Origin: a virus
Taxonomy: Duplodnaviria > Heunggongvirae > Uroviricota > Caudoviricetes
Reading direction: 5' to 3' (one strand)
Length of the DNA stretch: 64,000 bases
Virus record (IMG/VR): IMGVR_UViG_2648501802_000002
Below, piece after piece: positions 1-62,448 of the stretch. Position 1 is the stretch's first letter. Each line of letters starts with the position of its first letter. The notes beneath the pieces are model-generated. The model was given only the letters and a program-made list of their open reading frames with translations. It had not been told where the DNA came from and searched no databases. The position numbers and the translations under genes are program-made.

Positions 1-951
1 GCCATCAACAATAGTTGTCACAGCCTGCTTGTGCGCTTCTCCTGATAAAGCCTGCATCTGGACAAAATCATTGGCTGCCGCATTAAGCGCCGTCAGAACA
101 TTACGCATATCCGGATCAGGTTCTTCTGCAACCATCCTTACCAGGCGCGCATCCTTATATGCCTTGGCAAAGATCGCGTTTTGTATACGGTCTACAAGTT
201 GCCGCGTTGGTCGCCCATCTTCCGTTACAAGGCCAGCAGCCTGTGTGGCACCAACTTGCGTCATGAATCCGCGAATAAACGCGTCATTACTGCGGCTAAG
301 CAGATCTCCACTTTCTGACGGGTTAAACAACGCCATCATCGCCGGTGTTATGCTGTCGGCATCAACAAAAGCCTTTTCACTGGCTGCCATTTCCTGGAGA
401 TCAGAAATATTTGAGTCCTTGGCAAACTGAACACGGTCAGCCTTCGTTAACCGGCGGCGCACCAGTACCGGAGCCGTCATTGATTCAACCTTTTCAGGCC
501 GTATGCCGAATTCGGTCGCATGTTCAATCAGGTACTCCCGATACCGATCCGCATTACCGTCCTGATAGGCTTTAATGATCCCCATGGTCCGCCCATTACC
601 TGACTCAACGGCATTGTCCTCACCAATTATTGGCGCGCCATGGCTGGATAAACCGGAATCGGTAAGCTGGGCAGGACGCAAATCCTTGGATATCTGGTTG
701 ACCTGAAGAAGGCTGGATGCGCGGGTCCGGTCGCGCGGCTGAAGTTCCTGGGGATAGTCTGGATTAATTTTCCCATCCAGAGTATTGGATACCAAAAGAA
801 CTGAGGCATCGACGATATCAAACGCTGTTTTTACCTCGTCTCCCTTCGCTGTCACCACATACGAAACCCGCCCGTAATCGGGCAGGTTTTTTAGCAGCTC
901 GATCAGCGTTTCTATGCTGGTGGCCATCACCACCTGATCGCTTAAGCTCAT
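1..951 (-). CDS. Partial CDS (N-terminal part; runs off the window start); ParB/Srx-like N-terminal domain protein
   Basis: Manual minus-strand translation from ATG near 949-951 (MSLSDQVVMATSIETL...) stays open to position 1; motifs QPRDRTR and SGNGRT resemble the ParB/sulfiredoxin fold. Absent from the ORF track because there is no stop in the window. Confidence 0.45.
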   Translation of the reverse strand, partial: MSLSDQVVMATSIETLIELLKNLPDYGRVSYVVTAKGDEVKTAFDIVDASVLLVSNTLDGKINPDYPQELQPRDRTRASSLLQVNQISKDLRPAQLTDSGLSSHGAPIIGEDNAVESGNGRTMGIIKAYQDGNADRYREYLIEHATEFGIRPEKVESMTAPVLVRRRLTKADRVQFAKDSNISDLQEMAASEKAFVDADSITPAMMALFNPSESGDLLSRSNDAFIRGFMTQVGATQAAGLVTEDGRPTRQLVDRIQNAIFAKAYKDARLVRMVAEEPDPDMRNVLTALNAAANDFVQMQALSGEAHKQAVTTIVDG

Positions 952-963
952 CCCTGTTACGCC

Positions 964-1329
964 TTATGCTGCCTCTTTAATGTTGGCGGCTATCCATGCC
1001 GCCGTGTGCTGTTTAACCTGGTCCAGATCGATGTATGTGCCAACATATTGACTCAAGTCCTGCAACGTACCGATAAATGCATCGGTGCTCTGATCGACGA
1101 ATTTATCAGCCAGGAAATCAGCAACCAGTTTTGGCACACCATCATGTACCGAAGGTTGTTTTTCCTCGCCACTACCGCCGCCGGACGCGCCGTACCCCAT
1201 CTGTTGCATGATCTGGTCAATTTCATCGCTGATATCCAGCAACTCCATGCCACTCGCGGTAGCCGCTTTGGACATCAGAGCATCCAACTTATCGCTGAGA
1301 TCCATTAACTCAATAGCTGATAGTGTCAT
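964..1329 (-). CDS. Hypothetical small acidic protein (position of ddrA in a P1 dar-like operon)
   Basis: ORF track 121 aa; co-directional with and overlapping the stop of the upstream 639-aa gene. Confidence 0.5.
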   Translation of the reverse strand: MTLSAIELMDLSDKLDALMSKAATASGMELLDISDEIDQIMQQMGYGASGGGSGEEKQPSVHDGVPKLVADFLADKFVDQSTDAFIGTLQDLSQYVGTYIDLDQVKQHTAAWIAANIKEAA

Positions 1330-3245
1330 GCCGCTACCCCCGCTTTCTGGATTGCTACCAGCAGATCAGCCAGGTGGCGAGCTGCGCCGTTAACCAGCTC
1401 TTCGTTTTCCTCAAAACGTCCGGCAGCCTGAAGGGCTGCAATCGCTTCCCGGACATTGCCCCGGGCGTTACGGATCTCCGCCATGTCAGTGCTTTGTATA
1501 TCCATCACGTTATTGAGATATTCAATGGCTTTATTAGCCTCTGCATCTGCTTCGCTAACCGTTTCATCAGGCTGTGCCGGGGCCGGTTCTGGCTGAGTAA
1601 TCTCACCGACTTCGGCCTGCAATGCATTGATCATGCTCTGCACCATTTTCTCGGTGCCAGCGCCCCCAGGAAACGCAATATTGGGGAAAGTTTTTTGAAA
1701 CTGAGTTTTCAGCATTACGCGGAACTCGTCTGGTGAGCTGGTGGCCAGCTCCAGAGCTTTTTGTGCATATTTGCCAAACGGACCATTAGTAAGTGTCTTC
1801 GCCAGGAAGTCGAAAGAATCCTCGCGAGGCAATAACTTCAGGTCGTACTCACTCATTTGCTGATCAGAAAGCGGGGTATCGTAAGTAGCAATGCCGTAGC
1901 GTGCATATTCATAATACGGGTCACCTTCATCAGGGCGCGGCAGAATTGCTTTGTTACCTTCAGGTATTGCGCCAGGGGCCGCCGGACGCATTTGCAGGGC
2001 ATATCGATATGCACCTACAGAGACTTCTGGTTCAGGCGAAGAGCTACCGGTATCCTCCGCTGGTTCAGGCTCGACGTTTTCCGGTTTATGTTCTTCTGGT
2101 TGGACCAGGTATTCCGATACATTACCCGCTTTATAGGCTTTAAACAGCTTGCCGATCGCATCTGCCATGTCCACACCCTGTATGGATTTAGCCTTGATCA
2201 TGTATACGCTGCCATCCGGATCGGTTAACTGGATATACCCTTCGCCGCCCCCAATGAATTGCTTCATTGATGCACCATTACTGAGCGTCACTTCCCCGTC
2301 CATATGCATACGATTTTTGATACTGGCAAGGCGATCCGTCAGCGCGCGAGAGTGCCCACCAGTCATCCCCGCTGGAGCAATGGTATCGCGCCCACCAGTG
2401 CGATTGAGCTGATCAATCTCCGTCTGCAAACGCTCATTCTCTTCATAAAGAGAATCCGCTTCCGATGCAACAGCGTTAATTTTCTGCTCCAGATCTGCCT
2501 TCTGCCCTTCTACCGCTGCCACCTGATCCGCGAGGTCGCTCATGGCATCCTCTTTCTGGTCACTGTCAGCCTGTAGTTGGGTTATTTCATCAACAAGGGC
2601 TTTTTTCTTCTTCTGCGCACGCTGGAATTTTGCCGAGTTTTTCTCTGCAAGGTTGGCAAGTTTCATGGTGACCTGCGCCAGCGTCATATCACGTCCACTC
2701 ATCGGAGCAACGGTGTGAGTAACGTCTTTTTTATTCAGTAAGAACTGGAAAGCAACCAGCGTATCGCTATTGGTGATCCGGTTTTCCGCTGTCGGGCTAT
2801 GAAACAGAATGCTGATAGTCTGACCATCACTGAGCGGAATAATGGCTGGCAGGACTGGCAGCCCGTTAACGTTACGTGCCCGGCCAATTTCAGCGCCGCC
2901 GATCGCGCGCGCGCCGCTCTGGGCCACATCCCCCGTTTTATCACTCCCCGCAGAGATTCCGGTACCATTCAGCTTCTGGTTCAATGCCCGGACAAATGCC
3001 TGCATGGTCCGGTGTAACTGCAAACGAGTAGAACTAATCGCCTCCAATAAATCCGTAGCACACCAGTGGATCGGCGTGTCATAGAAGAACGTTGCCTCGA
3101 TTTCCTCCAGGGTGTTGGATTCCGTCATCAGATAGCGGTCCTGACCAGCCATTAATGCGCGATATTCATCATCAGTCACCGGCGGGGGAAGCACGTCAAG
3201 CCCCGGCTTAATCGTCACCCCTTTATTGATATTGAACTGTTCCAT
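1326..3245 (-). CDS. Large coiled-coil protein, candidate DarA-like antirestriction / internal virion protein
   Basis: ORF track 639 aa; central coiled-coil (LQADSDQKEDAMSDLADQVAAVEGQKADLEQK); shares a domain with the upstream 203-aa protein (DGQxIxI...KNSAKFQ). The size and the paralogous upstream fragment fit P1 hdf-darA from memory; not verified by alignment. Confidence 0.5.
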   Translation of the reverse strand: MEQFNINKGVTIKPGLDVLPPPVTDDEYRALMAGQDRYLMTESNTLEEIEATFFYDTPIHWCATDLLEAISSTRLQLHRTMQAFVRALNQKLNGTGISAGSDKTGDVAQSGARAIGGAEIGRARNVNGLPVLPAIIPLSDGQTISILFHSPTAENRITNSDTLVAFQFLLNKKDVTHTVAPMSGRDMTLAQVTMKLANLAEKNSAKFQRAQKKKKALVDEITQLQADSDQKEDAMSDLADQVAAVEGQKADLEQKINAVASEADSLYEENERLQTEIDQLNRTGGRDTIAPAGMTGGHSRALTDRLASIKNRMHMDGEVTLSNGASMKQFIGGGEGYIQLTDPDGSVYMIKAKSIQGVDMADAIGKLFKAYKAGNVSEYLVQPEEHKPENVEPEPAEDTGSSSPEPEVSVGAYRYALQMRPAAPGAIPEGNKAILPRPDEGDPYYEYARYGIATYDTPLSDQQMSEYDLKLLPREDSFDFLAKTLTNGPFGKYAQKALELATSSPDEFRVMLKTQFQKTFPNIAFPGGAGTEKMVQSMINALQAEVGEITQPEPAPAQPDETVSEADAEANKAIEYLNNVMDIQSTDMAEIRNARGNVREAIAALQAAGRFEENEELVNGAARHLADLLVAIQKAGVAA

Positions 3246-3246
3246 G

Positions 3247-3858
3247 TTAATTTCCTGCTTTCAGTTGCTTAAGACGGCGTTTGAGTTCGCCATTCCGTGC
3301 CTTTTCGTTATTGAGTCGGCCCGTCTCCTTATCCAACTTCGCCCGCAAATCTGTGATCTGCTGTTGATTGAAAGACACCGAATTCTGCGCGGACTTATAA
3401 GCGGCAACCACCTGAGCATTCCGCTGTTTTGCTTCTTGCAGGCGCTGAAAGTTGGATTTAACTGCCGGTTTCTTGTCTACCGGATTGGCAACACGCTTCG
3501 CTTTGGCGATCAGTGATTTCTGGAATTTCGCAGAGTTTTTGCGGGCCGCTTGCCCCATGACGGTACCAAGCGTCTTGATATCTGGCGACTGTGCGTTAGG
3601 AATAGATTTTCCATTCAGTTTCACAGCCGATATATCACCAGTATCGTTTACCTGTATGGCAAGAATTTGTCCGTCGTTAAGAACCAGTTTTGCGGTTTTA
3701 ACTTTAACGCCATCTTTCGTTGTTGCGCGGTTGCTGGAGTCAACCTCAATTACCGTAACACCGGTTTTATTGATCGCCGCGATAAGGGATTTCAGCCCCT
3801 TTTCATTAACCTGGTCAAAATCGACCGTTGCATACTTATTTTTCGTCATCTGACACAT
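3247..3858 (-). CDS. Hdf-like protein (homolog of a fragment of the 639-aa protein)
   Basis: ORF track 203 aa; motif ...LNDGQILAIQVND...ARKNSAKFQ matches ...LSDGQTISILFHS...AEKNSAKFQ in the downstream 639-aa protein. Confidence 0.5.
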   Translation of the reverse strand: MCQMTKNKYATVDFDQVNEKGLKSLIAAINKTGVTVIEVDSSNRATTKDGVKVKTAKLVLNDGQILAIQVNDTGDISAVKLNGKSIPNAQSPDIKTLGTVMGQAARKNSAKFQKSLIAKAKRVANPVDKKPAVKSNFQRLQEAKQRNAQVVAAYKSAQNSVSFNQQQITDLRAKLDKETGRLNNEKARNGELKRRLKQLKAGN

Positions 3859-4279
3859 CCTGTGCGAGATTTATTACGTAACTTCTGCGGATTTGCTGAG
3901 TAACAGGGAAAATCCGATACAACGGGTTAATGAACGAGTCGCCATGCGTAACCATGACGTTGAAATGCCACAGTCGCTCTCCTTTACCCATATATTCAGT
4001 GGGTATGTACAACCATTCACTGTTTTCGCCCTGTTCAGCCGACGTCAGACAACGTTGTTCGCCTTCAATCACTGTCGTCGGCTTCTGAACATCGCGGATC
4101 CAATATCTGACCGTTGCGCCGCGCAAAAACGGGAATTTAGACCGGTATTTGAACGGCACCCGAATGAAACCCGGTTTAATTTCCACATCACCAAGTTCTA
4201 AATGCGTGATGTCCTTGCGTTTTAGCAAATAGCGATCGGCTAAGGCTAACGCAAGAACGCATACACCCCAGCCAATCAT
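3836..4279 (-). CDS. Hypothetical protein (position of P1 lydB-like gene)
   Basis: ORF track 147 aa; overlaps neighbours in operon fashion. Confidence 0.45.
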   Translation of the reverse strand: MIGWGVCVLALALADRYLLKRKDITHLELGDVEIKPGFIRVPFKYRSKFPFLRGATVRYWIRDVQKPTTVIEGEQRCLTSAEQGENSEWLYIPTEYMGKGERLWHFNVMVTHGDSFINPLYRIFPVTQQIRRSYVINLAQDVSDDEK

Positions 4280-4605
4280 TTCCCACCTCCCTTTTTCACC
4301 AAACTTGTAAGAACATTCAGAATGCTATCGATATTCACTCGTTTCATCCCTGAAATCACCTCATGACCGTTATTGCTGGCTATCGTTACCATTAAGTACG
4401 TAATTGATAACTCCCAGCCTTCGTGTTGCCCCAATAGGTACGCCACCGCGCCAGCTGTCACTGCAACAAAGATCTCCGTAACCAATCCCAACAAGTTGCC
4501 AGACTGGCGACCATCTCGGACATCCATCAGGAACGTGCCTATCCCACCAATTACTGAAAGCAGGAGCGCAATAGCAACTGGAGCTAATTCCTGTGTGTCA
4601 AGCAC
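4276..4605 (-). CDS. Small membrane protein, holin-like (P1 LydA-like position)
   Basis: ORF track 109 aa; hydrophobic helices (VAIALLLSVIGGIGTFLM; IFVAVTAGAVAYLLG) and charged C-terminus; first gene of a co-directional operon. Confidence 0.45.
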   Translation of the reverse strand: MLDTQELAPVAIALLLSVIGGIGTFLMDVRDGRQSGNLLGLVTEIFVAVTAGAVAYLLGQHEGWELSITYLMVTIASNNGHEVISGMKRVNIDSILNVLTSLVKKGGGK

Positions 4606-4705
4606 AAGTTCCCTCCTACGTTGTCAGGAGGTAATGGTATGCAAAGTAACTTCTCAACCGGTCATGTTACTTGACATCCTCCACGTCCTTTAGAGCGTGG
4701 AGGAT

Positions 4706-5177
4706 GTGTGCGCCCAGCATGGGCGCGATCTTGGAGGTGAAAGCCCTCCCGCGAGCTGACCACAGCGAGCGAAAGGAAGTGCAACTGCGTGAGGGCGGCT
4801 AGGCGTGGGGAGGAAGCACGGAATGAACCCGTGAGCCGATGAACAAGAATCGGATATGAGGCGCGATGGAGCAAGGCGAGCAGGCACATCACTGCGAAGC
4901 TTTCGTGACAAAGTCGCGTAGATCCGACGGTTGTGCGGGGAAGGATCGCGTTCTTACCTGGGGAGTTCTCGCCTCATGCCTGAAAGGGCAACGTCGTAAG
5001 ACGGAGCGAGAAGTCAGCAGAGGCCGTAGTAGTCAGGACTCCGACGAAGGGCCGAACGAGAAGGAAAGCCAAAAGATATGACTCTTGACAGGACATTGCG
5101 TCAGAAGCCGGGGAAGCCCGGTACGGACCCGCATGCCGGGTGGTGTGGCAGGGGCGCAGCCTTGTGCTCCCCCCTAT
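4706..5177 (+). ncRNA. Candidate ORF-less group II intron-like structured RNA (possibly a decayed remnant)
   Basis: GC-rich segment with no credible ORF. Starts GTGCGCCCAGCATGGG (group II GUGYG 5' consensus, close to Ll.LtrB GUGCGCCCAGAUAGGG from memory) directly 3' of a perfect 11-bp hairpin (CATCCTCCACG-N10-CGTGGAGGATG, 4675-4706). Many GNRA-like loops; ends ...CUCCCCCCUAU (AY 3' end). No RT/IEP ORF, and I could not pick out an unambiguous domain V by eye. Confidence 0.3.
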
Positions 5178-5603
5178 GCCGATCAAGCAGAACATTGTGC
5201 TGGGCCTCTGACGCATCTCCTTGATGGTCTTGGCATCGTGCTTAAGTGGATTGGTGTCGTCTCTGATAGGCTCATGGAGGCAGAATGAAACTCAAAAATC
5301 CGGGACAGCACGCAAAACAGGCTGCACAAAAAGCGCAGGTTGCGTAGGAGTGGAATCCCGCTCCCAAAAAATGGTGCAGAAGTTGCGGCAGTGGTCATCC
5401 GACGCACTGGAAAATAACAAACCCGCCGTGACCAGAATCGGAGGCCTGAGGGAGTGACCGTAAAACCGGATAACCCAGGCAGCAAATACCCGCTGGATGA
5501 GGCATGGTTCCGGCAGATAATACCGAAAACCGCCAGACACACTGGATAATCAGTAGAAATAACCCATTAAAATCATTATAATAATTGGGCACATTATTAT
5601 ATT

Positions 5604-6167
5604 ATGCTGAATAATAGAGACATGAATATTAATGAACTTAAAGACTGTATTCACTATGAAGTAATCGGTAGCGAGCGTCCTTTCTCCTGGCGAAAGGCAA
5701 TTGTTCGCGCAATAAAACATAGAAGAGTTCGTTATTTATTTTGGTGGCGCATAGCCAAATACCTTTTTGATAAAGGCGGATACTGTCGGAAGATTGCGGG
5801 GAAAATGGAACGTTTCATTCTTGATAAATATAGTGTAACAGTCCCTTTAACTGTAAATATAGGGAAAGGCTTTGATATTTCTTATCTCAACGGTGTTGTT
5901 ATCGGTCACAAAGTAACCATTGGTGAAAATTGTTCAATAAAACCAGGGGTAACTATTGGGCTACGTGGTGATTTTAATGATATGGATATTGTTATAGGAC
6001 ATAATGTGACCATTGGTTGTAATGCCACCATTCTTGGTGGCAAAGTGCGTATAGGAAACAATGTCACAATAGGTGCTCATGCATTGGTATTGCATGATAT
6101 TCCTGATGATTCAACATTCATCACTAAATTTCAGTCTGAAGTTATCTGCTCGTCCTCTTGCACATAA
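5604..6167 (+). CDS. Hexapeptide-repeat (left-handed beta-helix) acetyltransferase, WcaF/LacA-like; moron
   Basis: ORF track 187 aa; hexapeptide repeats ([22 protein letters not shown]...[33 protein letters not shown]); AT-rich island; convergent with tfa; TATAAT-like box near 5577. Confidence 0.8.
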
Positions 6168-6748
6168 CCCTGATTCATCAGCTCTGGCCATACGATATCC
6201 GGAGCTGTACTGGTGTCAATTCGACTCACTAATACTCTGTATTTTCTCCAGGAATCCAGTTGTGAATTTTCCTCGGTTGTTGCTATTTCAAGATTAACTG
6301 CATCCTGCAGAATTGCGATGTTATCTGTTGCCTCCTGAATCAACCTTGCCTTTTTCTCTTCCGCTTCCCGTATCCGAAACAGTTTTTCTGCTTCCTCATC
6401 CTTCACCCAGGATACGCCGTCCCACTTCTGATACTCCCCTGCTGGCGACAACCAGGTGACATTCTCTGGTAACGGTCCGAGTTCAGAAATAAACAACGCG
6501 TCCCCCGATGCCACGTCATAGACCGTTTTACCACGATGGTCTTCAACAATAATCCATGATTCATTTTCACTGTTAAAAACTGCCACAAAGCCAGCAGGAA
6601 TTTCCGGTGGGGCGATATCTGTAGAATTAGCTGGTAGCCCTGTATGAGGTGGAATATATGCGTCACCTTCACCAATAAACTCATTAGTTCCGGCGAGCAG
6701 GTTATAAATTTTTACAGTACGTGATTGTTCACTCATTCTGAATGCCAT
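6131..6748 (-). CDS. tfa: Tail fibre assembly protein Tfa
   Basis: ORF track 205 aa; N-terminus [41 protein letters not shown] is near-identical to lambda Tfa as I recall it. Confidence 0.9.
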
Positions 6749-7640
6749 TATGCAAGCCTCACAATATAATTAAATGCGATGTTTTTAACGGTGTTTTCCG
6801 AGTTACCAGCAGCGTTAACGGTGATGGTGTGTCCATGTGAACCAATCGCAACAGAGTGCGTATGAGCGCCAATATCAACTGTATGTGCATGCGCCCCTGC
6901 ACTTGCAGCGGTGCCTGATACTGAGTGGGTGTGTGCACCAGAAGAAGGCACAGTTCCATTCCCCACCACAGTGCCGCTTGATGAGCCATCAAGCCAGTCG
7001 AAATTCATACCGCCACCATCTGGTCTCCTTAATGGAACGGTATGAGTATGTGCGCCAGCACTATTTGCAGTACCAGATACATTGTGGGTATGTGCACCTG
7101 TGTTATTCGTTGATTTAGTACCGTAATCAAACGAAGATGTGGTTTTCGTACCCAAATCCGTATTGGATGCGCTGGCGCTGTGGGTGTGCGATTTAATGCC
7201 ATCCTGTTCCAGAGACAATACGTCCCGACCACTGGCGGGTTTGCCCTTGATTGTCCAGCCACGCATATCCGGGATCACGCCTGACGGATAAGCGGCTGCA
7301 AGTTTCGGGTATGCAGATTTGTCAAAAGTCTGTCCCTGCATCAGGGCGTAACCAGACGGCACAGTATCTGATGGCCACGGATGCGGAACACCAACAGGAA
7401 GGACCTCAATATCCCCGGAACCATCAAACGAAACGTTATTAATTTTACGGGCTGTTTTCAGCTTTGTAGCCGTTGAGGCATTGCCGGACAGCTCACCAGA
7501 AATGCCACCAACAACTGTTAGATCACCAGTTATTGTGCCGCCTGAACTTTCCAGTTTTTTAGCAACATCACTCTTAATAGAGTCGATTTCTTTTTTTCAG
7601 ATTAGTTATATCTGCTGGTATCGTTGTCACTGTTGCCATA
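6748..7640 (-). pseudogene. Side tail fibre C-terminal (receptor-binding) gene interrupted by a +1 frameshift in an A7 tract
   Basis: ATG near 7638-7640 with AAGGA Shine-Dalgarno; reads [16 protein letters not shown] then hits a stop. The long frame (..[23 protein letters not shown]...[15 protein letters not shown]...GAHTHSV...[11 protein letters not shown], lambda Stf-like C-terminus) opens at the homopolymer (plus-strand T7 at about 7594-7600). A6 would give one ORF of about 297 aa. Confidence 0.65.
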
Positions 7641-7812
7641 TTAATTCCTTACGCCCATTCCCGCAGCGGTTGTTCTAATTGAACTTCAAAACCATCAAAC
7701 ATTTGTTGTTTCAAACTGTTGTTTAAAATACGAACATTAACGAAGAAGCCATCATTTTTAATCACTGTTGGTTCTTCGTTCTCGCCGTTTGGTATTTCGG
7801 TATATGTAACAC

Positions 7813-9240
7813 CTACAACATCAAGAAGAATGTTGTTTTGCAGCTCTTCATTATCGTGGTGCCGAGTTCTCTTAAACCAAGGTATTGGATAACAGCAAGG
7901 ACGCTTGTTTTGGACAGAATATCGCGACCGACTGACGTTAAGTCAGTCTGAGAAACAGTGTCTGTACCGGTAAAGTACGGCAGTTTATTTGCGCCTGTAG
8001 CAAGACCAGCAAGCGCGGTTAAAGTTGCATCCAGAGGCTGTTTGCCTGCCAGCGCATTTGTCATTGTTGTCGCAAAGTTCGGGTCATTACCAAGTGCTGC
8101 GGCAAGCTCATTCAGGGTATCAAGAGCTTCTGGTGATGAACCAACCAATGCGGATATGGCAGCTCTTACATAAGCAGTCGTAGCAATCTGCGTATTATTT
8201 GTGCCCTGCGCAGCCGTAGGCGCAGTAGGGACTCCCGTTAATGCAGGGCTTGCCAAAGGCGCTTTGAGGGCTAGGGCATTGTTGATAGTTGTGCTGAAAT
8301 TCGGGTCGTTATTGATCGCAGCAGCTATTTCTTTAAGCGTATCCAGTGTGCCAGGTGCACCGTTGATAAGTGCCGTTATAGCTGACTTAACAAAGGCTGT
8401 ATTTGCGATCTGCGTGCTATTTGTACCTTGCGCTGCCGTCGGCGCGGTTGGCGTTCCTGTCAGACTCGGGCTTTCTATTGGCGCTTTGGTATCAGCAAGA
8501 CCTTTTACAGACTTAACGGCTTTAGGGGTAGCCGCCATTGTTTCGCTGTCGCTGTTAGTTTCGCTACTGAGCTGAACTAATCCCTTTTGCGTTGTGCTTG
8601 CATCCTGTGCCGTATACTTGCTTTTCGCCAGATCGTAGGCTTTTTTAGCTGCCAGCGAACTTGCAGCAACATCACTTCTGCTACTGGTTACAGAGTCTGA
8701 AATATCAATGCCGATCGTGCGGTTAATACGCTCGGATGTATCAATCATCTCCTGGGTAATGGCTGATACGCCAGCAGGGATATTCACCGTACAAACAAGC
8801 AGCTCTCCATCTCCTAACTGATATGAATCGGTATAGGTTCTGGCAACAAATTCAGCCGCATGAATATGTGACGCGGTATTAACCTGATAGGTATCCTCTC
8901 CAAGGAGGTATCTTCCCTTCAGCACAATTGCATATTTCTTGCCTTCACTAAGTGCAAGAGAAATATCCTTACGGTGCCGAATAGTTACCTGGTAGAATTC
9001 ACCAATATCCACTGACGCAGCGCCAGCAGTTTTATCACCATCCACTGAGGTGATTAACAGGTTCATACCACCGCCAGGCTTCGGCAGGAAACCGGCATAA
9101 AACCCAGGATCAACAATTCCCCTGAATTTTCGGTTTAGCGCGGCTGACAGATATGGTTCGTGGTATTGCACATCAGCCACCAGAGCCAGTGACTCGGGCG
9201 ATGGGTAAGTAACTGATGTAACAACTGTAACGTCATTCAT
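7813..9240 (-). CDS. Tail fibre protein, N-terminal/constant part (Stf / P1 S-like)
   Basis: ORF track 7813..9327; start set at internal MNDVTVVTSV. Contains TTQKGLVQLSSETNSDSETMAATPKAVKSV and repeated SP(A/S)LTG(T/V)PTAPTAAQGTN fibre repeats. Ends abruptly after YLGLRELGTT. Confidence 0.8.
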   Translation of the reverse strand: MNDVTVVTSVTYPSPESLALVADVQYHEPYLSAALNRKFRGIVDPGFYAGFLPKPGGGMNLLITSVDGDKTAGAASVDIGEFYQVTIRHRKDISLALSEGKKYAIVLKGRYLLGEDTYQVNTASHIHAAEFVARTYTDSYQLGDGELLVCTVNIPAGVSAITQEMIDTSERINRTIGIDISDSVTSSRSDVAASSLAAKKAYDLAKSKYTAQDASTTQKGLVQLSSETNSDSETMAATPKAVKSVKGLADTKAPIESPSLTGTPTAPTAAQGTNSTQIANTAFVKSAITALINGAPGTLDTLKEIAAAINNDPNFSTTINNALALKAPLASPALTGVPTAPTAAQGTNNTQIATTAYVRAAISALVGSSPEALDTLNELAAALGNDPNFATTMTNALAGKQPLDATLTALAGLATGANKLPYFTGTDTVSQTDLTSVGRDILSKTSVLAVIQYLGLRELGTTIMKSCKTTFFLML

Positions 9241-9764: not shown

Positions 9765-10604
9765 TCAGGCATCGCTATCCAGCAGCAAATCATCTGCGCG
9801 GGAGCGATCAAACGTAGGCGTTGCTTTCACAATAGTGCCGCCCGGCGTTGCAGTGATCGGGGCACTAATCGACGTAACTCCGGCAAGCGAAGTTGTATCC
9901 GAAGTTTCAAACCAGCAGTACGCTTTTTCGGTATCAGAAATCTCGTTCAAAGTGATCATGTCGGCCTGTTCATTTACAACAACCGACAAATAGAGCGTAA
10001 GCCCATCAAACACTATATGCAGTGGCAGTAGAGGCTTTACGAACTGATTAAACTTTCTGAGAATTTCTTCTGTAATTGCGGACTGATCTATCGTGCCAGT
10101 AATACCCATTGTCCTGGCCAGGTCGTTTATGGGAATACTGATCATCCCTCTGGAAGTCAGAAACATCTCGCCGAATGTGCCGCCAGTAGTCTCCAGTGTG
10201 CTTTCTGGTATTAGAACTGTGCCATAGGGATGACGCTCAAGGTCCACCGGTGCATATATCGGATCCCATAAAACAGAAATACCGTTAAATTCGCGGTAAA
10301 TTGTCTGGTTTATAGGACGTTCAGTTCCCTTAAAGTGGATCTCATCAAGCCGCTGTTGTAACAACATCGGAACGGAAGATGAGTTCGAGGTTCTGATAGT
10401 AAAGAACTGGCCAAGTTCATTTGTCCTGGTCTCCAGATCCTCCTTGCTCATGGAGAAAATAGACTTCCGGTTGGTAATTCGCTCCAACCATGGGTCAACA
10501 AAGGTGTCCATCATTGACTGAACCAAATCAGCCAATGATTTATAGAGCAATGACTTTTGCTTAGCTGATGTAAGCCGGTTATTAAACCAGGAACGCTGCA
10601 TCAC
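9765..10604 (-). CDS. Tail/baseplate protein
   Basis: ORF track 279 aa; operon context with overlapping stop/start. Confidence 0.45.
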   Translation of the reverse strand: MMQRSWFNNRLTSAKQKSLLYKSLADLVQSMMDTFVDPWLERITNRKSIFSMSKEDLETRTNELGQFFTIRTSNSSSVPMLLQQRLDEIHFKGTERPINQTIYREFNGISVLWDPIYAPVDLERHPYGTVLIPESTLETTGGTFGEMFLTSRGMISIPINDLARTMGITGTIDQSAITEEILRKFNQFVKPLLPLHIVFDGLTLYLSVVVNEQADMITLNEISDTEKAYCWFETSDTTSLAGVTSISAPITATPGGTIVKATPTFDRSRADDLLLDSDA

Positions 10605-43746: not shown

Positions 43747-44682
43747 TTTTCCTCACATATGTCATATAGTAAAGGATTATATATACCGTTGTTTTGGACG
43801 CTCAAACAGCGAATCAGATCAAATAAAACGCACATTTGTTAACATTTACACAAAGTCTGCGTGGGATATTCTGAAAGAATATCCATAATGTGGAGAGAAT
43901 CTATTGAAGTGCATGGTGCCGGGTGCCTCCCGGTGAACAAAATGTTCGTGATACCTGTCGGCGACAGAAAAGGTTAATGGTATCACCCCACCGCACAGGG
44001 GGATTCACCATGCAGGAGTTTTCTTAGCAAACTCACTGCGCGCCCGGCAACTCCCAACCACATAAAATGCGGAGTTTGTGGTATTTATGCATATAACTCG
44101 CAGGAATTATCTTAAAAAACTGATGTCGATCCGGATTAAAAAGAAGCAGGTCATCATCAGATGACTGGAAAAAAGGAAAACAAAAAATACTCATCATACA
44201 GTTTTGATTGCAGGGATGAGCCTGCTATGCACAATATGCAGAATATAAGCAAGATAAAAATATGCAGGCATATTATTTCGGATTTTGTTATTAACACAAC
44301 CTTTTTAATAATCATTTGGCATACAATAAACCAGCCCAAAAAGAACCGCCTAAACAGGCGGTTGGTCAATACAAAGGATGCTTCGTCTTTATTATAGTAA
44401 TCTGAGGCGTCGAGTGTCTTGTATCAGACAACATATTGTCCCGCTAAACAGCGAATTACAAACCACCCTGCAATGATCTCTCATCTCATTTTATATGAGT
44501 TGACGACATCAGGATAACGCATCATCAGCCCCTGCCAAGAAATATCAAAACTCCCGCCAGCAATGTGTTATCACAATATTGTAAAAAAAACACAGCACCG
44601 AAACTATAACTGGTCTCTGTTATAATTTGGAGCAGAAAGACCAGTTGCCCAACTAGCAGCATTCTCCCCTGCTTTCCTGACG

Positions 44683-62072: not shown

Positions 62073-62267
62073 ATGCGGTATGAAAAAGTCAAACCATGCC
62101 CTTTTTGTGGTTGTCTATCAGTAACGGTAAAAGCCATTTCAGGATATTACCGCGCGAAGTGTAACGGATGCGAATCCCGAACCGGCTATGGTGGAAGTGA
62201 AAAAGAAGCACTCGAACGATGGAATAAACGAACCACTGGAAATAATAATGGAGGTGTTCATGTATAA
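62073..62267 (+). CDS. ralR: Restriction alleviation protein RalR (Lar family zinc ribbon)
   Basis: ORF track 62058..62267; MRYEKVKPCPFCGC...AKCNGCESRTGYGGSEKEALERWNKR; CxxC...CxxC. Confidence 0.8.
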   Translation: MRYEKVKPCPFCGCLSVTVKAISGYYRAKCNGCESRTGYGGSEKEALERWNKRTTGNNNGGVHV

Positions 62268-62448
62268 AATTACCGCCACTATTGAAAAGGAAGGTGGCAC
62301 TCCTACTAACTGGACAAGGTACTCAAAAACAAAATTAACCAAATCAGAATGCGAAAAAATGCTCTCAGGTAAAAAAGAAGCAGGCGGTTCCAGAGAGCAG
62401 AAAGTAAAACTGATAAATTTTAATTGCGAGAAACTTCAGTCGTCGTGA
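62260..62448 (+). CDS. ydaC: YdaC-like small protein
   Basis: ORF track 62188..62448; start placed at the ATG preceded by GGAGG (MYKITATIEKEGG...), overlapping the ralR stop. Confidence 0.5.
   Translation: MYKITATIEKEGGTPTNWTRYSKTKLTKSECEKMLSGKKEAGGSREQKVKLINFNCEKLQSS

What the first reader, a model, noticed from the sequence alone, without database searches (positions are those of the whole stretch)
5560..6170. AT-rich acetyltransferase moron convergent with tfa
A hexapeptide-repeat (LbH) acetyltransferase gene on the opposite strand from all surrounding tail genes, in a sharply AT-rich island with its own TATAAT-like box. Such enzymes acetylate sugars, amino groups or antibiotics. Beside tail fibre genes this suggests lysogenic conversion of a surface polysaccharide (which would block superinfection through the same receptor) or a resistance determinant.
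Basis: partly seen in the sequence, partly recalled or inferred. Interest (0 to 1): 0.4.

Follow-up and report, generated by a model that had tools for sequence, protein, structure and literature searches.

The report
Tail-fibre-linked phage acetyltransferase-like gene
An intact, strongly conserved hexapeptide-repeat "acetyltransferase" gene with its own promoter sits beside the tail-fibre genes of a P1-like phage-plasmid, as its relatives do in many temperate phages, but this version has lost the two catalytic residues such enzymes normally use, so its job in the lysogen is still open.

Summary
Window 5622-6167 (+) encodes an intact 181-aa left-handed beta-helix (LbH) protein. The ATG at 5604 is not conserved. 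A conserved TAGAAA-17-TATAAT lies at 5554-5582. The gene is convergent with tfa and overlaps it by 37 bp.

The element is a P1-like phage-plasmid. P1's lydC-cin-Sv'-U' block is replaced by a group II intron fragment plus this gene.

The protein belongs to the phage family phrog_2154 (function unknown), in the CysE/WcaB branch of LbH acyltransferases. It is not a serine acetyltransferase and not a Vat/CatB resistance enzyme: it misses every curated cut-off and lacks the RHP motif.

In 12 of 32 family clusters the gene lies directly downstream of, and convergent with, a tfa gene. The block 5534-~7400/7510 (gene, tfa, fibre tip) is 95-96% identical in P2-like prophages. The allele occurs in 182 of 5426 complete E. 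coli genomes. dN/dS is about 0.06, so the protein is under strong selection.

The twist: the catalytic Asp-His dyad is replaced by Thr79/Tyr94, only in this sub-clade (His in 243 of 262 homologues).

Best guess (about 0.4): a lysogen-expressed modifier of an envelope glycan precursor. A non-canonical or non-catalytic role is a serious rival. It is a new variant of a known kind, of moderate interest.

The parts
5554..5582 (+). Sigma-70-like promoter TAGAAA-17 nt-TATAAT belonging to the LbH module
   Evidence: Consensus scan scores 10/12. Both hexamers are conserved (TATAAT, or TACAAT in two loci) in alleles that have three different upstream flanks; sequence conservation starts at about 5553. 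Promoter activity has not been tested.
5622..6167 (+). LbH (hexapeptide-repeat) acyltransferase-family CDS of 181 aa; the alternative upstream ATG 5604 gives 187 aa. N-terminal four-helix domain plus LbH coils.
   Evidence: ORF list. Pfam Hexapep 6.6e-13. phrog_2154 3e-79 over the full length. PGAP start in pSCEC128. ATG 5604 is not conserved. dN/dS is 0.06. The AF2 model shows helices 9-76 at pLDDT about 95, with the LbH part less confident.
5838..5840 (+). Codon ACA = Thr79 (187-aa numbering), at the position of CysE Asp143 and the WcaB Glu
   Evidence: Alignment A4 with E. coli CysE and WcaB. This position is D/E in 184 of 262 homologues and is never D/E in the Tyr clade.
5883..5885 (+). 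Codon TAT = Tyr94, at the position of the general-base His (CysE His158)
   Evidence: Alignments A1 and A4. His occurs in 243 of 262 homologues; Tyr occurs in 15, all from the window's own clade. Among the locus clusters, 30 of 32 have His and 2 have Tyr.
5534..7400 (.). Mobile host-range cassette of promoter, LbH gene, tfa and the fibre C-terminal (receptor-binding) part, shared with P2-like prophages
   Evidence: The block is 95-96% identical to IMG/VR loci L096, L097, L100 and L102, where it lies between gpU and the baseplate/fibre operon. Homology starts at 5534 and ends at 7380-7509. The L124-type loci are 84% identical from 5547.
6131..6748 (-). Tail fibre assembly gene tfa (205 aa), convergent with the LbH gene. 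Its C-terminus runs about 14 aa beyond the usual ...WPxxP end, giving the 37-bp overlap.
   Evidence: Pfam Caudo_TAP 2.3e-39. Comparison of Tfa C-termini.
6748..7637 (-). Distal tail-fibre gene (Collar domain and HxH fibre repeats) served by tfa. It is frameshifted here at an A7 run (about 7589-7595).
   Evidence: Pfam Collar and Phage_fiber. Sequence reading and alignment with plasmid U2501, which has A6.
4666..5533 (+). Filler that replaces P1 lydC-cin-cixL. It contains a 5' fragment of a group II intron (D1-D4, 4789-5052) with no RT ORF and no domain V/VI.
   Evidence: P1 homology ends at 4665. Rfam RF02001 95.5 bits and RF01998 46.8 bits. There are no long ORFs. The same filler is found in 29 of 5426 E. 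coli genomes and is unannotated there.
7870..7889 (+). Orphan cixR site; there is no cixL and no cin anywhere in the window
   Evidence: Exact match to P1 cixR. tblastn with P1 Cin, LydC and U' finds nothing in the 64 kb.

Best explanation
Shown. The gene is an intact moron under purifying selection. [quoted passage not shown] It carries its own sigma-70-type promoter-like site. It forms the outer end of a roughly 1.9-kb cassette (LbH gene, tfa, receptor-binding end of the fibre). That cassette recombines between P2-like prophages and P1-like phage-plasmids. In this window the cassette and a group II intron fragment occupy the place of P1's cin inversion switch and alternative fibre.

Inferred. 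The gene is expressed in the lysogen, independently of the late tail operon that it faces. It acts on a cytoplasmic precursor of an envelope glycan (a nucleotide-sugar, or an undecaprenyl-PP-linked repeat unit of O-antigen, colanic acid or capsule). This changes the cell surface seen by incoming phages, giving receptor masking, superinfection exclusion or serotype conversion. The known parallel is the prophage LbH enzyme NeuO, which lies next to the CUS-3 tailspike gene.

Caveat. This allele, and only its sub-clade, has replaced the canonical Asp-His catalytic dyad with Thr79/Tyr94. If it transfers an acyl group at all, it does so by a non-canonical route: a Tyr or substrate-assisted base, or an amine acceptor.
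For: Family assignment: Pfam Hexapep. phrog_2154 at 3e-79. The nearest curated models are EpsC, cysE and WcaB. The best PDB profile matches are SATs at 5e-23.

Functional protein: dN/dS is 0.06-0.07 at dS 0.66-0.68. The 'YLxG' and 'KPGV' pocket segments are conserved within the Tyr clade.

Own promoter: it is conserved across three different flanks.

Tail-fibre linkage: 12 of 32 family clusters at 90% identity have a convergent tfa within -36 to +50 bp. Pfam confirms Caudo_TAP or fibre domains in those neighbours. Annotated examples are JL22, Hafnia yong2 and Citrobacter phiNP.

Cassette: it is 95-96% identical in P2-like prophages. The allele occurs in 182 of 5426 complete E. coli genomes, in 156 chromosomal and 58 plasmid places; the 14 listed rows all have tfa next to it.

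Glycan link: neighbours of distant chromosomal relatives are enriched in glycosyltransferases (GT2 17, GT1 8, Wzy 3 of 100). WcaB is the colanic acid acetyltransferase.

Precedent: neuO lies directly beside the CUS-3 endosialidase tailspike gene, and its capsule O-acetylation confers phage resistance (PMC13001214). Prophage acetyltransferase-like proteins were among the strongest K-locus predictors in Klebsiella (PMC13123978).
Against: The Asp143/His158-equivalent dyad is gone (Thr79/Tyr94). That His is regarded as the general base in SAT and in LbH acetyltransferases generally (PMC8786284; PMC3046976).

No glycan-synthesis gene accompanies the gene in any phage context.

The LbH allele does not co-vary with the fibre. 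JL22 has a tfa and fibre tip 76-90% like the window's, but an LbH protein only 36-38% identical.

Many family members lie elsewhere: after int in P2-like phages, next to a transposase, or as three tandem paralogues.

No substrate can be read from the sequence. The AF2 model of the LbH part is mediocre and the Foldseek search returned nothing significant.

No expression or phenotype data exist; the only paper that mentions a family member calls its role unknown (PMC9603915).
Confidence: 0.4

Rival explanations
1. Neofunctionalised, non-catalytic LbH protein (pseudoenzyme). The Tyr clade keeps the trimeric beta-helix and a ligand pocket but no longer transfers acyl groups. It would work by binding: sequestering a glycan precursor or acetyl-CoA, or blocking or regulating a host or phage protein.
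For: Both dyad residues are lost together, and only in this clade: T/K/V with Y, against D/E with H in 181 of 262 homologues. Further pocket changes are clade-specific: the Glu166-equivalent is lost and Q becomes P in 'KPGV'. Purifying selection is nevertheless very strong, and the allele is spread widely.
Against: From my own knowledge, not tested here: some LbH N-acyltransferases work without a catalytic base. Tyr could serve as the base. No partner protein is conserved next to the gene. Nothing here measures activity.
Confidence: 0.25
2. A defence or counter-defence enzyme unrelated to the envelope. It would acetylate a small molecule or a component of a competing phage, and it sits where temperate phages keep such cargo.
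For: In P2-like phages the family lies in the int-proximal accessory region, in one case next to an abortive-infection protein. In phiNP it lies next to hicAB. Alleles at the same locus are very divergent: 36-38% identity between the window and JL22.
Against: No PADLOC model matches. It is a single gene with no sensor or effector partner. No known defence system uses an LbH protein (my own knowledge).
Confidence: 0.15
3. A passive hitch-hiker. The site beyond the last gene of the fibre operon tolerates insertions, and the gene spreads only because tfa and fibre cassettes recombine often. On this view it gives no benefit to phage or host.
For: The gene travels inside the fibre cassette. Truncated or recombined copies exist (L132 and L137).
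Against: dN/dS of 0.06 at dS 0.68 is incompatible with neutrality. The promoter is conserved. The synteny holds across LbH identities as low as 34%.
Confidence: 0.05
4. A genuine serine O-acetyltransferase (an auxiliary metabolic gene) that raises O-acetylserine and cysteine supply, as the PGAP name implies.
For: The best curated and PDB matches are SATs. The databases name it 'serine acetyltransferase'.
Against: TIGR01172 scores 74 bits against a cut-off of 210.65, and PRK11132 scores 46 against 397. The equivalents of Asp143, His158, Arg192 and His193 are all absent. None of 91 family members has RHP, against 43 of 80 distant chromosomal relatives. The protein ends ...SSCT, not in Ile as E. 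coli CysE does; that this Ile binds CysK is my own knowledge.
Confidence: 0.03
5. An antibiotic-modifying xenobiotic acetyltransferase (Vat or CatB type).
For: Weak LbH-repeat similarity only.
Against: Vat and CatB models score 22-27 bits against cut-offs of 300-475. The protein belongs to a different LbH branch and lacks the extended loop that carries the catalytic His in the Vat/CatB/MAT/GAT-type branch (that these enzymes carry the His on such a loop: PMC3046976; that this protein lacks one: inferred).
Confidence: 0.02

Closest known systems
phrog_2154, including SacF of P1-like phage JL22 and 'Sat' of Citrobacter phage phiNP (all uncharacterised)
   Same: Full-length homology (3e-79 to the PHROG). 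The same position and orientation next to tfa. In JL22 it occupies the same P1 locus.
   Different: Those members keep the catalytic His and a D/E partner; the window's clade has Tyr/Thr. In JL22 the gene lies inside an intact Cin-invertible segment, between cixL and cixR. Here cin and cixL are gone. The role was stated to be unknown (PMC9603915).
NeuO, the polysialic acid O-acetyltransferase of prophage CUS-3 (E. coli K1)
   Same: A prophage-borne LbH protein encoded directly beside the receptor-recognising tail gene. It modifies that phage's own receptor polysaccharide and affects phage resistance (PMC3046976; PMC13001214). This is the best functional model.
   Different: It belongs to a different LbH branch. 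Only repeat-level similarity is detectable (31% over 97 columns with 29% gaps, E 0.002 against the single sequence). NeuO has a catalytic His and Trp and a phase-variable heptanucleotide tract. The window gene has neither the His nor any repeat tract.
WcaB, the colanic acid acetyltransferase of E. coli
   Same: The same short architecture: an N-terminal helical segment followed by LbH coils. It is in the same branch (59 bits; 29% identity). It is a cytoplasmic enzyme of a surface polysaccharide pathway.
   Different: The score is far below the equivalog cut-off (59 against 195). WcaB keeps the Glu/His pair and sits inside a glycan gene cluster.
CysE, serine O-acetyltransferase
   Same: It gives the best structural-database matches over residues 43-166, and the fold type is shared.
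   Different: All residues that define the enzyme are missing, and the scores are below the cut-offs. There is no long N-terminal domain.
Membrane-bound serotype-converting enzymes of temperate phages (Oac of Sf6, GtrABC, and the phage D3 system)
   Same: The proposed biological outcome is the same: lysogen surface modification that blocks superinfection (reviewed in PMC13123978).
   Different: Those are integral membrane proteins that act on the periplasmic side and are usually encoded next to int/att. This is a soluble LbH protein encoded next to tfa.

Membership tests
LbH (hexapeptide-repeat) acyltransferase superfamily | Tandem hexapeptide repeats scoring above the Pfam Hexapep gathering score | tested here: met
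   PF00132 scores 48.2 bits against a cut-off of 27, E 6.6e-13.
LbH (hexapeptide-repeat) acyltransferase superfamily | Catalytic general-base histidine | tested here: not met
   Tyr94 is at the His position. His is present in 243 of 262 homologues. The role of this His is described in PMC3046976 and PMC8786284.
LbH (hexapeptide-repeat) acyltransferase superfamily | Homotrimer with acyl-CoA bound at the subunit interfaces | not testable with these tools
   Only a monomer AF2 model was possible (pLDDT 77, with the LbH part at 62-82).
Serine O-acetyltransferase (CysE) | Score above the curated equivalog cut-off | tested here: not met
   TIGR01172 scores 74.2 against 210.65, PRK11132 scores 46.1 against 397, and EpsC scores 85.5 against 150. 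None of the 17 family members tested shows a best E-value (1.8e-19 to 4.7e-26) strong enough to approach these cut-offs.
Serine O-acetyltransferase (CysE) | Asp143-His158 dyad and the Arg192-His193 (RHP) serine-binding motif | tested here: not met
   The aligned residues are Thr79, Tyr94 and 'NDM-D' in place of 'GDRH'. RHP occurs in 0 of 91 family members, against 43 of 80 distant chromosomal relatives.
Serine O-acetyltransferase (CysE) | C-terminal tail ending in Ile, which binds CysK (established knowledge) | tested here: not met
   The protein ends ...VICSSSCT.
WcaB (colanic acid acetyltransferase) | Score above the equivalog cut-off, and location in a glycan gene cluster | tested here: not met
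   TIGR04016 scores 59.4 against 194.65. The neighbours are phage genes.
Vat / CatB xenobiotic acetyltransferases | Score above the curated cut-offs | tested here: not met
   The scores are 22-27 bits against cut-offs of 300-475.
phrog_2154 (phage LbH proteins, function unknown) | Full-length match to the PHROG profile | tested here: met
   E 3e-79, residues 5-184 on profile positions 2-182 of 185.
Phage moron | Own promoter, orientation independent of the neighbouring operons, deviant composition, and present or absent between related phages | tested here: met
   The promoter-like site is conserved. The gene is on the opposite strand. GC is 37.5% against 47%. It is absent from P1 and present in 35 P1-like plasmids. 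No terminator was found, and transcription has not been tested.
NeuO-type phage capsule O-acetyltransferase | Sequence membership (MAT/GAT-like branch with catalytic His and Trp) and demonstrated glycan O-acetylation | tested here: not met
   Only repeat-level similarity was found. Activity cannot be tested here. The resemblance is one of gene position and proposed role only.
Known anti-phage defence systems | Match to a PADLOC model | tested here: not met
   There are no hits at E up to 1 for the window protein or for two homologues.

The most novel reading that the evidence does not exclude
The window's sub-clade is an LbH 'acetyltransferase' that has given up the Asp-His chemistry yet remains under very strong selection. 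On this reading it is either a pseudoenzyme that works by binding (for example sequestering a receptor-glycan precursor, or poisoning a host LbH trimer) or an enzyme with a new Tyr-based or base-free mechanism and a new acceptor. It is disseminated among E. coli prophages and P1-like plasmids as a fixed passenger of a tail-fibre host-range cassette, which would make it a new type of fibre-linked exclusion factor.
Probability: 0.25. Interest if true: 0.6.

Novelty: new variant of a known kind. Interest (0 to 1): 0.35.

Why it matters
P1-like phage-plasmids and P2-like prophages are abundant in clinical and livestock E. coli, and they carry resistance genes. This allele alone is present in about 3.4% of complete E. 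coli genomes, under annotations that are misleading and mutually inconsistent.

If the protein alters a surface glycan or otherwise blocks superinfection, it affects three things: serotype, phage-therapy host range, and competition between phage-plasmids. Its physical coupling to the receptor-binding end of the fibre would then mean that 'what I bind' and 'what I change' move together in one recombination event.

The clade-specific loss of the catalytic dyad under strong purifying selection gives a clean, testable case of enzyme neofunctionalisation in a phage accessory gene. The practical lesson now is that the gene should not be annotated or interpreted as serine acetyltransferase, nor as a resistance gene.

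Tried and rejected
1. Structure route. AF2 with a 37-sequence alignment gave pLDDT 77, but the beta-helix was poorly formed. Foldseek against the PDB gave no match with E <= 0.001; the top hits were SATs at E 0.13-1 with rmsd about 10 Å. I did not use the model for residue-level claims.

2. I first thought the odd C-terminus (...CSSSCT) was a junction artefact caused by the overlap with tfa. I rejected this: the roughly 90%-identical (aa) alleles, which have an 11-bp gap before tfa, end ...YNSSHT. It is the tfa gene that carries the unusual extension.

It was useful only as an outgroup.

4. My first column mapping for the His/Tyr count was wrong. It was redone.

5. PADLOC found nothing.

6. 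NCBIfam on 17 family members gave no equivalog.

7. Contexts of the Tyr-clade members P0014 and P0009 were uninformative: a transposase fragment, UDG, and short contigs.

8. A strict co-variation test of LbH with tfa failed. JL22 pairs a similar tfa with a very different LbH, so a receptor-matched pair cannot be argued from co-inheritance.

9. The sub-threshold Rfam IS009 hit inside tfa (79 bits against a gathering score of 117) was not pursued further; it lies wholly inside the tfa coding sequence.
Full report
WHAT IS THERE. The window is a P1-like phage-plasmid. Positions 1-4665 are 97.9% identical to P1 ddrB-darA-hdf-lydB-lydA and the late promoter LPdar. Homology to P1 resumes at about 7857, at the cixR site inside the tail-fibre gene S. 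Between these points P1 carries lydC, cin, cixL and the alternative fibre genes Sv' and U'. The window instead carries three things. The first is an 868-bp stretch (4666-5533) with no long ORF, containing the 5' part of a group II intron (Rfam D1-D4 models at 4789-5052; no reverse-transcriptase ORF and no domain V/VI). The second is the reported ORF. The third is a different tfa and fibre tip. No cin, lydC or U' homologue exists anywhere in the 64 kb, and only an orphan cixR remains. The same 1.6-kb arrangement occurs in 35 plasmids, mostly from E. coli.

The ORF 5604-6167 (+) is the only + strand gene among - strand neighbours. It matches Pfam Hexapep (6.6e-13) and, over its whole length, phrog_2154, a PHROG of unknown function (3e-79). 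The true start is almost certainly ATG 5622 (181 aa). That is the PGAP start, and the ATG at 5604 is missing in alleles about 90% identical at the protein level. A TAGAAA-17-TATAAT site at 5554-5582 is the best promoter-like match nearby. It is conserved in alleles with three unrelated upstream flanks, and sequence conservation begins at about 5553. GC is 37.5% (GC3 29%), against 53-58% just upstream and 45% in tfa. Within this mosaic genome that is only z = -1.66, and 6.6% of equal-sized windows are as low. The gene overlaps the 3' end of tfa by 37 bp. The cause is a Tfa protein about 14 residues longer than usual after its ...WPxxP end, not a truncated LbH gene. Comparison with the 84%-identical (nt) L124-type allele (about 90% at the protein level) gives dN/dS = 0.06 at dS = 0.68. 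It is therefore a functional protein-coding gene and not a fragment.

WHICH SUBFAMILY. The nearest curated models are EpsC (85 bits, cut-off 150), cysE (74, cut-off 211) and WcaB (59, cut-off 195). Vat and CatB models score 22-27 bits against cut-offs of 300-475. No model reaches its cut-off for this protein, and the best E-values among 16 further family members (1.8e-19 to 4.7e-26) are no stronger. The best solved structures by profile search are serine acetyltransferases (5e-23, residues 43-166). I aligned the protein with E. coli CysE and WcaB, fetched from K-12. This shows the serine-binding 'DRHP' is absent. RHP occurs in 0 of 91 family members but in 43 of 80 distant chromosomal relatives. 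The flanks of those distant relatives fall into two groups: cysS and cysK-type (PALP) genes, marking true SATs, or glycosyltransferases and Wzy, marking glycan acetyltransferases. The phage family therefore belongs to the CysE/WcaB branch but is neither a SAT nor a resistance enzyme. The database names are not reliable: 'serine acetyltransferase', 'transferase', 'DapH/DapD/GlmU-related' and 'wcaB domain protein' all appear.

THE TWIST: THE CATALYTIC DYAD IS GONE. In SAT, His158 is the general base, activated by Asp143 (PMC8786284). A catalytic His was reported to be shared by all LbH transferases crystallised up to 2011 (PMC3046976). WcaB has Glu/His at these columns. The window protein has Thr79 (codon 5838-5840) and Tyr94 (codon 5883-5885). 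Among 262 homologues from the two database searches, 243 have His and 15 have Tyr. All 15 belong to the window's own clade, which extends down to 52% identity and includes Hafnia phage yong2. In that clade the acid position is T, K or V and never D or E. Other pocket positions also differ in a clade-specific way. The clade is nevertheless under strong purifying selection and is widespread. Canonical O-acetyl transfer therefore cannot be assumed. The protein either uses another mechanism or has become a binding protein.

THE TAIL-FIBRE LINK IS REAL AND GENERAL. Scans of IMG/VR, GenBank phages and assemblies gave 91 family members in 32 clusters at 90% identity. In 12 clusters a tfa gene lies immediately downstream and convergent, from -36 to +50 bp. 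Pfam confirms Caudo_TAP in 8 of 29 downstream neighbours scanned (one per cluster, 3 clusters having none) and fibre domains in several more. The 12 clusters span LbH identities of 34-100% and include unrelated myoviruses: P1-like JL22, Hafnia yong2 and Citrobacter phiNP. Other members lie after int in P2-like phages, once beside an Abi gene, or at prophage ends. The window block 5534 to about 7400/7510 (promoter, LbH gene, tfa, fibre C-terminal part) is 95-96% identical in P2-like prophages. There it sits between gpU and the converging baseplate/fibre operon. A host-range cassette that includes the LbH gene has therefore moved recently between P2-like and P1-like elements. The allele is found in 182 of 5426 complete E. 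coli genomes, in 156 chromosomal and 58 plasmid places. The pairing is not strict. JL22 has a similar tfa and fibre tip (76-90%), but its LbH protein is only 36-38% identical and of the His type.

HOW IT MOST LIKELY WORKS. Shown: an intact, selected LbH-family gene with a conserved promoter-like site, physically coupled to the receptor-binding end of the fibre. Inferred: it is expressed in the lysogen and acts in the cytoplasm on a precursor of an envelope glycan, changing the surface that incoming phages meet. Several lines support this. WcaB is kin. Distant relatives are flanked by glycosyltransferases. The closest functional precedent is NeuO, an LbH O-acetyltransferase encoded directly beside the CUS-3 tailspike gene, which acetylates that phage's own receptor and raises phage resistance. 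Prophage acetyltransferase-like proteins were also among the strongest predictors of capsule type in Klebsiella. NeuO is only a functional analogue, since sequence similarity is at repeat level only. I put this model at about 0.4. The main rival (about 0.25) is a non-catalytic or mechanistically new protein, because of the lost dyad. A defence or counter-defence role unrelated to the envelope is at about 0.15: the gene lies in accessory-gene regions, but PADLOC finds nothing. Neutral hitch-hiking, a true SAT and antibiotic resistance are each unlikely.

NOVELTY AND SCORE. The gene is annotated in databases. A paralogous allele, 'sacF' of JL22, was noticed in print with the remark that its purpose is unknown (PMC9603915). 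Four results are new here. The SAT and resistance readings are excluded. The recurrent tfa-linked synteny is quantified. The cassette shared between P2-like and P1-like elements is defined. The clade-specific loss of the catalytic dyad under strong selection is documented. That makes it a new variant of a known kind (a phage LbH moron) and moderately interesting (0.35). If the pseudoenzyme or new-mechanism reading proved true, it would deserve about 0.6.

Noticed in passing
window 7589-7595 (- strand A7 run), within the fibre gene 6748-7637: The distal tail-fibre gene that tfa serves starts at ATG 7637 ('[16 protein letters not shown]...'). It is frameshifted by one extra A relative to plasmid U2501, which has A6. 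This could be a pseudogene, a homopolymer sequencing error or slippage.
   Followed up: partly
window 7813-9240 (-) and 7650-7850: The P1-type S gene stops at 7813, about 20 codons after the orphan cixR (7870-7889), so only the constant part Sc is encoded. It is followed by the 3' two-thirds of a 92-aa ORF known from plasmid U2501. pSCEC128 and several IMG/VR relatives have an intact 1181-aa S gene here. The fibre locus looks like a frozen, possibly dead-end product of Cin-type rearrangement.
   Followed up: partly
window 4666-5533, Rfam hits at 4789-4953 and 4971-5052 (+): A truncated, ORF-less 5' fragment of a group II intron fills the place of P1 lydC-cin. The same filler is present in 29 of 5426 complete E. 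coli genomes and is unannotated there. Part of it (about 5188-5381) is 80% identical to a piece of a tape-measure gene in another genome.
   Followed up: partly
L009 (phage JL22) 2328-7789; sacF at 5022-5498: In JL22 the homologous LbH gene lies inside the intact Cin-invertible segment, between exact cixL and cixR sites, and is co-directional with the silent Sv'-U'. After inversion it would sit downstream of the expressed alternative fibre operon, so its expression might switch together with host range.
   Followed up: partly
L008 7992-9697 (Enterobacteriaceae bacterium BIT-l23 chromosome): Three different paralogues of the family (49%, 38% and 40% identical to the window protein) lie in tandem, outside any obvious prophage. 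This is suggestive for a protein that normally forms trimers.
   Followed up: no
L013 (Streptococcus phage 9874) 5010-5489, and 19 other S. thermophilus phage records: A distant LbH relative (31% identity) lies between the last tail/receptor-binding structural gene and the holin in the dairy S. thermophilus phage records related to phages 9871-9874.
   Followed up: no
window 6207-6405 (-), inside tfa: Sub-threshold Rfam match to the sRNA candidate IS009 (79 bits against a gathering score of 117). It lies wholly inside the tfa coding sequence and may simply reflect tfa-derived sequence in the family's seed (inference, not checked).
   Followed up: no
window 62266-62444 (-) and 43857-44043 (-): Rfam matches above the gathering score: RalA, the antitoxin sRNA of the RalR/RalA type I toxin-antitoxin pair (212 bits), and STnc100 (87 bits).
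   Followed up: no
window 6131-6172 (-): Tfa here ends ...[22 protein letters not shown], about 14 residues longer than nine other Tfa/U proteins, which stop 2-5 residues after WP. The extension is what creates the overlap with the LbH gene. No + strand terminator follows the LbH gene, so its transcript would run antisense into tfa.
   Followed up: partly
L001 (pSCEC128) 1117-2325: The otherwise near-identical plasmid pSCEC128 carries an insQ/TnpB gene between ddrB and ddrA that is absent from the window.
   Followed up: no
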